IMG/VR virus record: IMGVR_UViG_3300037721_000031
Span: 160,001-224,000 of that record
Reading direction: 5' to 3' (one strand)
DNA length: 64,000 nucleotides
Source: a virus
Lineage: Duplodnaviria; Caudoviricetes
Below, one piece after another: positions 2,344 through 5,449 of the stretch. The notes under the pieces were generated by a model. The model searched no databases. It was given only the letters and a program-made list of their open reading frames with translations, and was not told the origin of the DNA. The translations under genes and the position numbers were made by a program. Each line of letters opens with the position of its first letter. Within the stretch, counting starts at the first letter, position 1.

Positions 2344-2384
2344 ATTCTGAAATCAATTTAACAAATTATGCAACTGTCTCAATA

Positions 2385-2460
2385 TGGTGCCCCCGGTCTG
2401 AATCGAACAGACGACCTTCCGCTTACAAAGCGGGTGCTCTACCAACTGAGCTACGAGGGC
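2385..2460 (-). tRNA. tRNA-Thr(TGT)
   Basis: Canonical cloverleaf; loop TTTGTAA; CCA. Confidence 0.95.
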
Positions 2461-2482
2461 ATTTATTATACCATACTTAAAC

Positions 2483-2806
2483 TGGAACCGATCGCCTGAA
2501 TCGAACAGACTTCTATCACCTAACGTTTATCCCAACTGTTAACTGTGTAACTCACTGCTTCTGCGTCATTGGACTGCCTGTGCTATCTCTTAGCACAGGC
2601 TTCTCTTAGAGAATTTATCCAATTGTCTAGATAGCGGAGATTACTACATTACCAGCATCAATACCCATAGACGTTTATTCACATCCGAAGATGAACGTTC
2701 AGCCAGGGCGGGCTAGGACTAGCTAAATGCTATCTGCTCCTAAGTGGGCAGACTCCTATTGATCAGACTACATACAGTGATTGCTCTACCAATGAGCTAG
2801 ATCGGC
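2483..2806 (-). ncRNA. tRNA-scaffolded RNA with 257-nt insert replacing the anticodon loop
   Basis: Acceptor GCCGATC/GATCGGT, D-arm GCTC-ATTGGTA-GAGC, stem ATCAC/GTGAT, T-arm GTCTG-TTCGATT-CAGGC, CCA; insert 2520-2776 is hairpin-rich. Confidence 0.85.
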
Positions 2807-2830
2807 TTACTACTTTCAAACAACCGTTAC

Positions 2831-3794
2831 CGTACCACTATAGTTTTCACTACCGAGGATGACTTTTCTCAAATGCGACTACAGTCATCTTGGCTGTGCT
2901 AGCCATTTCTTTGGAGACTTCAACGATCTTCTATTAGGAAGACCTCCATCTATATAAATCCAAATACTCTCGTTTGTGGTCTGGACTATGCCTTCATCCA
3001 TTGTTACTCGGCGGCAATCATATCGGCATTGTCACTCCATTTTACTGGGGATATTTCCAATATAGCTATCCACCCTAGACAAAGCACATGTTGTTCATTC
3101 CAACAACACCCGCTCTTTAAGCCTACACTTGGATGATCTCCATCTAGTCTCTACACCTTCAAGAATAATCTACGTACCTTCACAGGTATGTGTATATCAT
3201 TACTAATTCAGATACTAAAGATACCGAGAGTCGAACTCGGACCATTCCACAGCGGAGTCTACCGCTTGACCTATATCTCTAGTACAGTGCTGTGTTCACC
3301 TTCTGAATTAATACATTCAATACATCAATAGCCGGAGGAGCCCTACTCCATGGACGAATCATAGGTTTCGAAGCTACTATCGTCTGTTTATTGTCATACC
3401 TGCCGGCATGACTCAACACTCTACGTTCTTTTAATCGCTACTGAAAAATTACTCAAGCTTGGCTCGGCGTTGACATGGTAAACTTATTACATAAATGGAT
3501 CATCACTTTTGGATGTTTCCATTTTGTTAGGTCCAAGTCTACTTTAGTGTTCGCCGAATTTGAAGATATTCACCTAACAGGGTATAGGATTCTCACCTAG
3601 TACGCTTAGAGTTTGACCTCAATCGTTTCCTGCTATTTTACCGTCTCTCGATTGCATCGTTTCGTACATAGCTTCTTTTTGAAGGAAGCTACATATATCC
3701 CCAACGCATTTTTCGGTGGTGCTCATGTTTCTGCTGGATAGTCATGACTCGTGCTCACATAAGTATTCGCGAATCACTAATACCCATTCAGCAT
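2831..3794 (-). ncRNA. Group I intron (IB-like, ORF-less, large peripheral inserts)
   Basis: P4 UCGGCG/CGCCGA, P3 AUCUUCA/UGGAGAU, P7 GACUA/UAGUC, P8 CAUCCA/UGGAUG, P9.0 ACCAC/GUGGU, terminal G at 2831; core is clear, 5' splice site is inferred. Confidence 0.85.
3215..3282 (-). ncRNA. tRNA-like domain embedded in intron L6
   Basis: 9-bp acceptor-like helix, U8-A9, D-arm GGTC-AAGCGGTA-GACT, perfect T-arm CCGAG-TTCGACT-CTCGG, stunted anticodon arm. Confidence 0.75.
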
Positions 3795-3818
3795 AAGACG
3801 GTTATTTTACTAACTAAA

Positions 3819-4217
3819 CTAGATGGACATTATGAGTACATGTCCATCATCACCAACAATCATGTCTTCAACTTCTTCATGGTCGAAAGGAATGTCTCTG
3901 TAGCGCTCTCGAGCTTCAGCATGTTCCGCTCCACCATTTACTTTCTCTTGTTTTCGTCTCAGAGCTCTGGCTTCATAAGCATGCAAAGCTTGCTTTAAAT
4001 GCCAAATCGCATCTTTAGTTTCGTCACACGGAATCAATCCATCAAGGTAGACAGACCTATCCAAGAGTGCTCGAATGACTTCCTGAGTATTTGTTCCTTG
4101 GTATTCGACATCATGCCTCACATGCCGGCTACTTCTTTTACAGAATTTCAATTCCTGATGACCTGGTGTCCCAAGATTATCAAGATGGTAAATGTGACCT
4201 GCATCAATTATTTTCAT
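3819..4217 (-). CDS. Tad1-like (Tad1/Acb2 fold) anti-defence sponge candidate
   Basis: H.Y...KF.K...G....E...L.DR......P..E...A..H...AL......R...V.G pattern matches Tad1 as I recall it. Confidence 0.65.
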   Translation of the reverse strand: MKIIDAGHIYHLDNLGTPGHQELKFCKRSSRHVRHDVEYQGTNTQEVIRALLDRSVYLDGLIPCDETKDAIWHLKQALHAYEARALRRKQEKVNGGAEHAEARERYRDIPFDHEEVEDMIVGDDGHVLIMSI

Positions 4218-4925: not shown

Positions 4926-5004
4926 TGGTAGGCCGGGTGAGATTCGAACTCACTATCGCTGGCTTATGAGGCCAGTGCTTATACCAGGCTTATGCTTCCG
5001 GCCC
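4926..5004 (-). tRNA. tRNA(CAT), Met or Ile2
   Basis: Anticodon arm CTGGC-CTCATAA-GCCAG; acceptor GGGCCGG/CCGGCCT with C4-G69 and C5-G68 favours Ile2; atypical A8 and D-arm. Confidence 0.85.
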
Positions 5005-5400
5005 ATTTTTATTTCTATCTCTACTGTATTGTTTCATCCAGACACTCTTTGCTTCTTTGCAAAGGTCACATTTACAGTAGCGATATTCTGTAAGAGTCCC
5101 GTGTTTTGGAATTCTTTTGCTTCTGAACAACTCGTCTGCTTTTTCTCTATTTTGTGGTTTTGTCAGAATCTGCAGATTGTTAATATCGTCGTTTGTTTTA
5201 TCATCGTCTTTGTGATCGACTTCAAGACCATCTGGTACGATATATCCGAGTTTAACAGACATCAAATAACGAGCATATGAAATTGTTGTACTGGTTTCCC
5301 CAGTATTGTAGAGAATAACATTTCTTCTATTCTCTGGGTTTACAACAATGTACCCACATTTCCATTTCTCCTTGAATGGAGATTCTAGTTCTATTTTCAT
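4990..5400 (-). CDS. HNH homing endonuclease
   Basis: VDHKDDDKTNDDINNLQIL motif; stop codon lies inside tRNA(CAT). Confidence 0.9.
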   Translation of the reverse strand: MKIELESPFKEKWKCGYIVVNPENRRNVILYNTGETSTTISYARYLMSVKLGYIVPDGLEVDHKDDDKTNDDINNLQILTKPQNREKADELFRSKRIPKHGTLTEYRYCKCDLCKEAKSVWMKQYSRDRNKNGPEA

Positions 5401-5415
5401 GTTCTTTTTTTTTTT

Positions 5416-5449
5416 AAGCCGCTGCTCTAACCATCTGAGCTAACGGCCC
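5416..5449 (-). pseudogene. 5' half of a tRNA gene, broken at the anticodon loop
   Basis: GGGCCGT-TA-GCTC-AGATGGTTA-GAGC-A-GCGGC-TT, then an A11 run and the HNH start. Confidence 0.85.

What the first reader, a model, noticed from the sequence alone, without database searches (positions are those of the whole stretch)
2483..2806. tRNA scaffold with a 257-nt structured RNA grafted in place of the anticodon loop (tmRNA-like architecture, non-Ala identity)
Seen: complete acceptor, D-arm, T-arm and CCA. The anticodon stem continues as a long irregular helix into a 257-nt loop with hairpins (CATC-TTCG-GATG, a 10-bp GCCTGTGCTA/TAGCACAGGC, TCTGC/GCAGA) and a 13-codon ORF (MGIDAGNVVISAI, 2627-2668). 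Known: tmRNA has similar size and topology but lacks a D-stem and needs G3-U70. This RNA has a D-stem, C3-G70 and a Thr-like G1/C2 start. The insert has no group I core and no obvious 7-nt anticodon loop can be rebuilt. Inference: a new tRNA-chassis ncRNA, such as a stabilised payload, ribosome-binding mimic or alternative tagging RNA.
Basis: partly seen in the sequence, partly recalled or inferred. Interest (0 to 1): 0.85.

Follow-up and report, generated by a model that had tools for sequence, protein, structure and literature searches.

The report
Phage tRNA carrying large RNA domain
A few related jumbo phages from fresh water, sediment and wastewater keep a complete tRNA body whose anticodon loop is replaced by a conserved, folded RNA of 255 to about 490 bases that matches no known intron, tmRNA or RNA family; it is most likely a new tRNA-built non-coding RNA, though an unrecognised kind of intron is not excluded.

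Summary
On the minus strand, 2806-2483 is a full tRNA body: acceptor, D arm, T arm, U73 and CCA. A roughly 255-nt insert splits it where the anticodon loop should be.

I found the element in three diverged phage lineages (88% and about 66-80% identity). Of 74 proposed pairs, 14 show compensatory changes and 2 have a non-pair in one lineage. The tertiary elbow pair also changes on both sides, G19-C56 to A19-U56.

- It is not a tmRNA: C3-G70, a D stem, no conserved ORF and no model hit.
- It is not a recognisable group I intron: no Rfam hit even at E<=10, and no P7/J8/7 core. A genuine IC3-like group I intron lies 25 nt upstream.
- It has no bulge-helix-bulge motif.
- No single excision restores a canonical anticodon arm in any lineage.
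- The junction bases vary while the inner blocks are invariant, which is the opposite of what an intron should show.
- Two cDNA-labelled runs hold contigs only over the insert. One of them runs 10 nt into the tRNA body.

Best reading (0.45): a stable, tRNA-processed chimeric ncRNA whose payload function is unknown. Main rival (0.28): an unrecognised type of intron.

The parts
2776..2806 (-). tRNA 5' half. Acceptor 5' strand 2806-2800, U8 A9, D arm 2797-2783, linker A 2782, 5' strand of the anticodon-type stem 2781-2776 (AUCACU).
   Evidence: Read. ARAGORN with introns allowed. Rfam partial tRNA hit 2780-2806 (15.3 bits). Compensatory changes in the acceptor and D stems across lineages.
2521..2775 (-). 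Payload of 255 nt. A closing helix leads to a junction with two parts: a three-hairpin domain and a long arm ending in a three-way junction.
   Evidence: Fold. Alignments A1 and A2. Pair table. No Rfam family at E<=10. No conserved ORF.
2483..2520 (-). tRNA 3' half. 3' strand of the stem 2520-2515 (GGUGAU), variable 2514-2511, T arm 2510-2494, acceptor 3' strand 2493-2487, U73 2486, CCA 2485-2483.
   Evidence: T-stem pair U-A changes to C-G in L006, and T-loop C56 to U together with D-loop G19 to A.
2523..2773 (-). Closing helix that continues the anticodon-type stem. Ha1 is AUGU 2773-2770 / ACGU 2526-2523. Ha2 is GUCU 2768-2765 / GGAU 2532-2529.
   Evidence: The pair U.G / U-A / C-G varies but is kept in the three lineages and in strain variants (2524 C>T).
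2657..2763 (-). Helix Hb, AUCAAU 2763-2758 / AUUGAU 2662-2657, enclosing the 5' domain.
   Evidence: A-U changes to G-C on both sides in L006.
2732..2753 (-). Hairpin H1, GUCUGCC-ACUUA-GGAGCAGAU.
   Evidence: Two compensatory pairs across lineages.
2671..2698 (-). Hairpin H3. Outer helix ACGUU/AACGU, inner helix CAUC-UUCG-GAUG, A-rich 6-nt asymmetric loop UGAAUA.
   Evidence: G-C changes to A-U in the outer helix of L006. In L006 the UUCG loop is replaced by about 30 nt.
2568..2623 (-). Three-way junction. Closing helix AUUGGAU/GUCCAAU, an invariant hairpin UUCUC-UAA-GAGAA, and a 10-bp hairpin at 2600-2576.
   Evidence: The 10-bp hairpin has 4 compensatory pairs. Strain variants 2582 G>A with 2594 C>T, plus 2598 and 2599 G>A, keep pairing only in the minus-strand sense. 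The other two helices are invariant and so untested.
2535..2656 (-). Long irregular arm (arm D) that carries the three-way junction at its tip.
   Evidence: MFE only. The register relative to L006 is uncertain, so I could not count covariation reliably.

Best explanation
The element is a non-decoding chimeric RNA built on a complete tRNA body.

Proposed mechanism:
1. It is transcribed with the minus-strand tRNA cluster.
2. The L-shaped body (acceptor/T-arm stack and D/T-loop elbow) makes it a substrate for the ordinary tRNA end-processing enzymes, RNase P at 2806 and 3' trimming with CCA at 2483, and protects it from decay.
3. In place of an anticodon loop, the anticodon-type stem runs on as a long irregular helix into a folded payload that stays attached. 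The payload is 255 nt here and about 490 nt in one relative.
4. The payload, with its invariant three-way junction and A-rich internal loop, is the working part. It most likely binds a protein or other partner during infection.

Shown: the architecture, its conservation, its structure, and the fact that no anticodon arm can be restored.
Inferred: the processing, the stability and the retention of the payload.
Unknown: the partner.
For: 1. No single excision gives a canonical anticodon arm (at least 4 of 5 stem pairs, U33, purine 37) in the window, L008 or L006.
2. The bases at the body/payload junction differ between lineages (UGUAUGU / CGUAUGU / UUACGUA, and CGUUAG / CAUUAG / ACGUA) and include a 1-nt indel. 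Deeper payload blocks are invariant: AAUUGGRU, AUUCUCUAAGAGAAG, GUCCAAUGA. In a tRNA intron the exon loop bases should be the conserved part.
3. The junction is a continuous helix whose pairs co-vary: U.G / C-G / U-A and U.G / U-A / C-G (strain variants 2776 A>G and 2524 C>T).
4. The tRNA body is under structural selection. There are compensatory pairs in the acceptor, D and T stems, and the elbow pair changes from G19-C56 to A19-U56 in L006.
5. The payload is under structural selection too, with compensatory pairs in H1, Hb, H3 and the 10-bp hairpin.
6. Payload size is modular. In L006 it holds an extra ~235 nt, including a tRNA-like minihelix.
7. There is no match to any Rfam family, tmRNA included. 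The phage encodes no RNA ligase or splicing endonuclease.
8. In two cDNA-labelled wastewater runs, the only contigs of this phage on a 1551-nt stretch lie on the payload (2530-2786 and 2565-2708). One crosses the 5' junction 10 nt into the tRNA body. The neighbouring group I intron and the protein gene are uncovered.
Against: - There is no direct evidence for RNA ends, stability or retention of the payload.
- The tool itself doubts that the cDNA runs are RNA. They come from one study and are assembled contigs, and an unspliced junction could equally come from a precursor.
- Only three lineages are known, so invariant helices are untested and arm D is not settled.
- No partner or phenotype is known.
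- Introns in phage tRNA clusters are common, and a true group I intron lies 25 nt away, which raises the prior for some kind of intron.
Confidence: 0.45

Rival explanations
1. The insert is an intron of an unrecognised kind. It would be either a new self-splicing fold or an RNA cut out and rejoined by host enzymes such as RtcB. The product would be a tRNA with an unusual anticodon loop, or a non-decoding tRNA-like product.
For: - The insert sits exactly at the anticodon-loop position, as bacterial tRNA introns do (10.1101/2020.01.27.920355).
- The tRNA body is selected.
- The insert is highly structured and conserved like a ribozyme.
- In all three lineages a U precedes the conserved start A(U/C)GU(A)GUC.
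- A group I intron lies 25 nt upstream.
- Over-representation of the insert in cDNA runs would also fit a stable excised intron.
Against: - No splice-site choice gives U33 and purine 37 in any lineage.
- No terminal G sits at a fixed place: the last bases are ..UUAG..UUAG and ..CGUA.
- There is no group I core and no Rfam hit at E<=10.
- The 7-bp match between the 5' half and GCAGUGA lies at the wrong end for a guide sequence. It is broken in a strain (2554 A>G) and in L006.
- The two ends pair with each other, unlike group I.
- There is no bulge-helix-bulge motif.
- The phage has no RtcB, EndA, Rnl1 or Rnl2.
- The X20 contig crosses the 5' junction.
Confidence: 0.28
2. The tRNA body serves only as a processing and folding handle. 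The long closing helix is then cut, for example by RNase III, to free the payload as the active RNA. This is a variant of the best explanation.
For: The anticodon-type stem, Ha1, Ha2 and Hb together stack into an irregular duplex of about 20 bp. The cDNA contigs cover the payload better than the tRNA arms.
Against: - No cleavage data exist.
- Poor cDNA cover of tRNA arms is expected anyway, from base modifications and from sequence words shared with other tRNAs.
- Selection on the elbow pair is more than a bare processing signal needs.
Confidence: 0.12
3. It is a dead tRNA gene carrying a decayed, splicing-dead group I intron or other inserted DNA, still similar between phages only because they diverged recently.
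For: The insert gives no functional anticodon. A related phage (L061/L062) has the same island without this element. The body resembles the neighbouring tRNA-Thr, so it could be a spare copy.
Against: - 14 compensatory and 7 pair-keeping changes against 2 pairs with a non-pair in one lineage, over 74 pairs, at 66-88% identity. These include the tertiary G19-C56 to A19-U56 change.
- Strain-level changes keep pairing.
- The element is better conserved than the upstream region (88% against 71.5%).
Confidence: 0.08
4. It is a tmRNA-like tagging RNA with non-alanine identity.
For: The topology is similar: a tRNA-like domain, then a long irregular helix, then a large domain. The size is also similar.
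Against: - C3-G70 in all lineages, and a D stem is present.
- The only ORF (13 codons) is truncated in L008 and absent in L006.
- There is no ARAGORN or Rfam tmRNA hit.
Confidence: 0.02

Closest known systems
[quoted passage not shown]
   Same: A structured insert of roughly 200-300 nt exactly at the anticodon loop of an otherwise normal tRNA gene, inside a tRNA cluster.
   Different: No P3-P9 core, no R/S elements, no 5' guide sequence and no fixed terminal G. The two ends pair with each other. The exons cannot form a 7-nt loop with U33 and R37. There is no Rfam Intron_gpI hit at E<=10, while the true group I intron next door is detected (22.8 bits here, 37.3 bits in L006).
tmRNA (SsrA)
   Same: A tRNA-like domain with a CCA end, joined through a long irregular helix to a large folded domain; similar total size.
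   Different: tmRNA has no D stem, needs G3.U70 and carries a tag ORF among pseudoknots. This RNA has a full D arm, C3-G70 and U73, no conserved ORF and no model hit.
GOLLD and ROOL large RNAs of phages and prophages (10.1101/2024.12.08.627333)
   Same: Ornate non-coding RNAs of unknown function encoded next to phage tRNA islands. Some GOLLD members are covalently linked to tRNAs.
   Different: In GOLLD the tRNA sits inside the big RNA; here the RNA sits inside the tRNA. There is no sequence or model match, and this RNA is much smaller.
YrlA / bacterial Y RNAs with a tRNA-like module (from my own knowledge; Rfam RF02553)
   Same: A non-coding RNA that contains a module mimicking the tRNA acceptor/T/D region, found in bacteria and phages.
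   Different: YrlA is permuted: its 5' and 3' ends lie in the Ro-binding stem, not at an acceptor end. The only Rfam match here (13.3 bits, E=9.9) is a spurious join of two neighbouring tRNAs.
Engineered 'tRNA scaffold' for expressing recombinant RNAs (Ponchon and Dardel; from my own knowledge)
   Same: Identical design. The payload replaces the anticodon loop, and the tRNA body gives correct processing and nuclease resistance in bacteria.
   Different: That is a laboratory construct. This would be a natural counterpart, which to my knowledge has not been described.

Membership tests
tmRNA | G3.U70 alanine identity pair in the acceptor stem | tested here: not met
   C3-G70 in the window, L008 and L006.
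tmRNA | tRNA-like domain without a D stem | tested here: not met
   A 4-bp D stem with two compensatory pairs.
tmRNA | Conserved tag reading frame ending in a stop codon | tested here: not met
   The 13-codon ORF is cut to 7 codons in L008 and has no start in L006. No other shared ORF exists.
tmRNA | Match to tmRNA models (ARAGORN, Rfam) | tested here: not met
   No hit.
Group I intron | Conserved catalytic core (P3-P8 pseudoknot, P4-P6, P7 with J8/7; R and S elements) | tested here: not met
   No Intron_gpI hit at E<=10 on 2400-2900. By eye, the only P7-like helix (AUUGGAU/GUCCAAU) has a 1-nt J8/7, and two hairpins separate the covariation-supported Hb from the P4-like helix. The control works: the neighbouring intron is detected.
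Group I intron | U at -1 paired to a 5' internal guide sequence, and a terminal G | tested here: not met
   No guide sequence lies near the 5' end. The only exon complement (GCAGUGA) lies 3' and is not conserved. The terminal base differs between lineages.
Intron-containing tRNA (any type) | Excision restores a 5-bp anticodon stem and a 7-nt loop with U33 and purine 37 | tested here: not met
   Exhaustive enumeration of cut points in three lineages found none.
Archaeal/eukaryal-type tRNA intron | Bulge-helix-bulge motif at the splice sites and a splicing endonuclease/ligase | tested here: not met
   There is no 3-4-3 bulge-helix-bulge: the window has a 2x2 internal loop and L006 a single bulged U. 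No EndA, RtcB, Rnl1 or Rnl2 in the phage. Host enzymes could not be tested.
Canonical tRNA | Acceptor, D, T arms and elbow tertiary pair | tested here: met
   All arms are present and co-vary. G18 is kept, and G19-C56 changes to A19-U56 in L006.
Canonical tRNA | Anticodon loop | tested here: not met
   Replaced by a helix and the payload.
GOLLD / ROOL / other Rfam large RNAs | Match to the family covariance model | tested here: not met
   No hit at gathering score over the window or at E<=10 over the element.

The most novel reading that the evidence does not exclude
Phages have evolved a natural 'tRNA scaffold'. A complete, non-decoding tRNA body is used as a processing and stability chassis, and possibly as a handle for tRNA-binding machinery, for a modular RNA payload that acts during infection. 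Possible roles are in takeover of translation or in counter-defence. This would be a new class of tRNA-built non-coding RNA distinct from tmRNA.
Probability: 0.4. Interest if true: 0.8.

Novelty: new variant of a known kind. Interest (0 to 1): 0.62.

Why it matters
If the payload stays attached, this is a natural version of the laboratory tRNA scaffold. It would also be another kind of large RNA, alongside tmRNA, built on a tRNA-like body, and it comes from jumbo phages whose tRNA islands are already known to hold unexplained ornate RNAs such as GOLLD and ROOL.

If the payload is instead removed, it is an intron that fits no known class. That would be at least as interesting.

Either way the element gives a compact, well-defined and testable object. 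It is about 320 nt, has a covariation-supported fold and comes in three natural variants. It can be used to ask why phage tRNA islands carry structured RNAs.

Tried and rejected
**Readings rejected**
- Group I reading. I tried to thread P1-P9 onto the helices by hand, with Hb as P3, H3 as P4/P5 and AUUGGAU/GUCCAAU as P7. Every mapping violates the strand order or leaves J8/7 at 1 nt. The 7-bp match between UCACUGU (5' half) and GCAGUGA looked like a P1, but it lies at the 3' end and is not conserved.
- ARAGORN's calls. It called 'tRNA-Stop(UUA), 231-nt intron' for the window and 'tRNA-Ile(UAU)' for L008. These use different stems and anticodons in the two lineages, and ARAGORN finds nothing in L006. 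I treat them as artefacts of forcing a loop.
- Bulge-helix-bulge: not present.
- Small ORFs on either strand: none shared.
- Other copies in the genome: none.

**Homologue searches that found nothing**
- INPHARED phages by blastn.
- IMG/VR by six exact or degenerate patterns and by the neighbour protein.
- JGI metagenome contigs: 43 pattern matches, all chance by blastn.
- GTDB genomes.
- Contigs of more distant Tad1-like homologues.
- An intron-less counterpart of the tRNA was also not found. The patterns require exact bases, so this is weak evidence.

**Other**
- The promoter and terminator scan gave nothing above chance.
- Look-up of strain contigs by the window's own protein returned no DNA.

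Full report
**Context**

The window is bases 160001-224000 of a 266.6-kb, 39.9% G+C IMG/VR jumbo-phage record that CheckV rates 98% complete. Its first 7 kb hold a minus-strand tRNA cluster: Ser-GCU, Asn, two Arg-UCU, Leu-UAA, Thr-UGU, a Met-CAU-like tRNA and Ser-UGA.

**Observation**

Read on the minus strand, 2806-2483 is a tRNA body. It has:
- acceptor GCCGAUC/GAUCGGU;
- D arm GCUC-AUUGGUA-GAGC;
- stem AUCACU/GGUGAU;
- T arm GUCUG-UUCGAUU-CAGGC;
- U73 and CCA.

The two strands of the anticodon-type stem are 255 nt apart. ARAGORN sees the gene only when introns are allowed. Rfam reports no family for the insert, at gathering score or at E<=10. The fold is more stable than shuffles, z = -3.25.

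**Homologues**

Pattern and BLAST searches of INPHARED, IMG/VR, JGI metagenome contigs and GTDB genomes found nothing.

The neighbouring Tad1-like protein led to Logan contigs that carry the element:
- L008/L009 are 88% identical over the element, with the same gene order.
- L006/L007 are about 66-80% identical over the aligned parts. There the split tRNA lies upstream of the big intron, and its insert is about 490 nt.

Close strains, about 97% identical, occur in several DNA runs. A more distant relative, L061/L062, has the same island but no split tRNA.

**Structure and selection**

I took 74 pairs from the tRNA arms, the closing helix and four payload helices. Of these, 51 are invariant, 7 change on one side and keep the pair, 14 change on both sides, and 2 show a non-pair in one lineage.

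- The acceptor, D, T and anticodon-type stems all contain compensatory pairs.
- In L006, D-loop G19 becomes A and T-loop C56 becomes U, which keeps the elbow tertiary pair.
- The base pair directly beyond the five-pair stem is U.G, C-G or U-A. It is C-G in strains carrying 2776 A>G.
- Strain changes in the 10-bp hairpin (2582 G>A with 2594 C>T; 2598 and 2599 G>A) keep pairing only for the minus-strand RNA.
- Between the window and L008, the element (88%) is better conserved than the 900 nt upstream (71.5%).

So this is a selected, folded RNA on the minus strand and not decaying DNA.

**Is it an intron?**

1. For each lineage I enumerated every pair of cut points that would leave 21-24 nt between the D and T stems. 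I asked for at least 4 of 5 stem pairs, U33 and a purine at 37. None exists.
2. The junction-proximal bases differ between lineages and include an indel, whereas inner blocks are invariant. In L006 the junction is simply a continuous helix with one bulged U. An intron in a working tRNA should show the reverse pattern.
3. There is no group I core. The Rfam model finds nothing here, yet it finds the true IC3-like intron 25 nt upstream (22.8 bits here, 37.3 bits in L006).
4. Hand threading fails, and the covariation-supported Hb helix is incompatible with the group I strand order.
5. A 7-bp complement of the 5' half (GCAGUGA) lies at the 3' end and is not conserved.
6. There is no bulge-helix-bulge motif. 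The phage encodes no RtcB, EndA, Rnl1 or Rnl2.

**Is it a tmRNA?**

No. It has C3-G70 and a D stem, no conserved ORF and no model hit.

**Expression hint**

Two runs labelled 'RNA-Seq cDNA' come from one wastewater study, and the tool marks their RNA status as a guess. On the 1551-nt stretch laid, they contain contigs of this phage only over the payload: 2530-2786 in X20 and 2565-2708 in X24. The adjacent group I intron and the protein gene have no cover from this phage. A DNA run, by contrast, covers the whole stretch in one 43-kb contig.

The X20 contig runs 10 nt into the tRNA 5' half (GAGCAAUCAC), so unspliced junction molecules exist. This fits an abundant, stable, payload-bearing RNA. 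Because these are assembled contigs, it cannot show ends and cannot exclude a precursor.

**Interpretation**

The best-supported reading is a non-decoding chimeric RNA. A full tRNA body supplies processing signals, a CCA end and stability. A modular payload replaces the anticodon loop.
- Shown: the architecture, its conservation, its fold, and that no anticodon can be restored.
- Inferred: the processing and the retention of the payload.
- Unknown: the payload's partner.

The main rival is an intron of an unrecognised kind. A dead tRNA and a tmRNA-like RNA are both disfavoured.

The nearest natural analogues are tmRNA (same topology, different defining features) and GOLLD/ROOL (phage tRNA-island RNAs, with the inverse nesting). 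The nearest design analogue is the engineered tRNA scaffold, which I cite from my own knowledge.

**Origin**

Both halves resemble the adjacent tRNA-Thr(UGU) most closely, so the body is probably a duplicate of it.

**Earlier notes of this scan**

Earlier notes had flagged the same element, the upstream intron and the tRNA-like minihelix on this same genome. No look-alike on other DNA was on record.

Noticed in passing
window 2831-3794 (minus strand); L006:6960-7960: An IC3-like group I intron of about 960 nt with no protein-coding or tRNA host gene. P4 is UUCGGCG/CGCCGAG and P7 is GACUA/UAGUC. P1 pairs ACCGUCUU (3802-3795) with GAGACGGU (3647-3640), about 150 nt downstream. Its two flanks form a hairpin, AACCGU-CUU|GUA-ACGGUU, whose loop resembles the tRNA-Thr(UGU) anticodon loop. 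The hairpin stem co-varies in L006 (AACUGC/GCAGUU). It may be the relic of an intron-bearing tRNA-Thr.
   Followed up: partly
window 3216-3280 (minus strand); L006:6745-6806: A tRNA-like minihelix with acceptor, D and T arms and an anticodon arm shrunk to about 9 nt (Rfam tRNA, 36 bits). Here, and by partial matches in L061/L062, it lies in the region between the Tad1-like gene and tRNA-Thr, which in this window is the big group I intron. In L006 the same module sits inside the payload of the split tRNA. So it moves between the two RNAs.
   Followed up: partly
window 4929-5449 (minus strand): A 5' tRNA half (GGGCCGUUAGCUCAGAUGGUUAGAGCAGCGGCUU, 5449-5410) is followed by an HNH_3 endonuclease ORF (5400-4990) and then a complete Met-CAU-type tRNA (5004-4929) with the same acceptor start. 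ARAGORN misreads the whole as a tRNA-Phe with a 438-nt intron. It looks like the footprint of a homing event.
   Followed up: partly
L008:3059-3148 (also called in L061:5511-5600 and L062:1288-1377): In relatives, the tRNA after the split tRNA is a 90-nt class-II-shaped tRNA with a long variable arm, a 3-bp D stem, a UGU (Thr) anticodon and U73. In this window the tRNA-Thr at that place is an ordinary 76-nt class I tRNA.
   Followed up: no
It has 20 homologues (46-91% identity), all from metagenome assemblies and mostly in unrelated phage contexts beside DNA polymerase, SSB or helicase genes.
   Followed up: no
window 2350-3900, runs X20 and X24: High contig depth at 2818-2869, 2974-3025, 3130-3181 and 3442-3493 comes from other organisms' group I introns that share only the core (P4/P6, P7, P9). 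Their peripheral loops are replaced by short hairpins. This shows how much the phage intron's P6 and P8 regions are enlarged.
   Followed up: no
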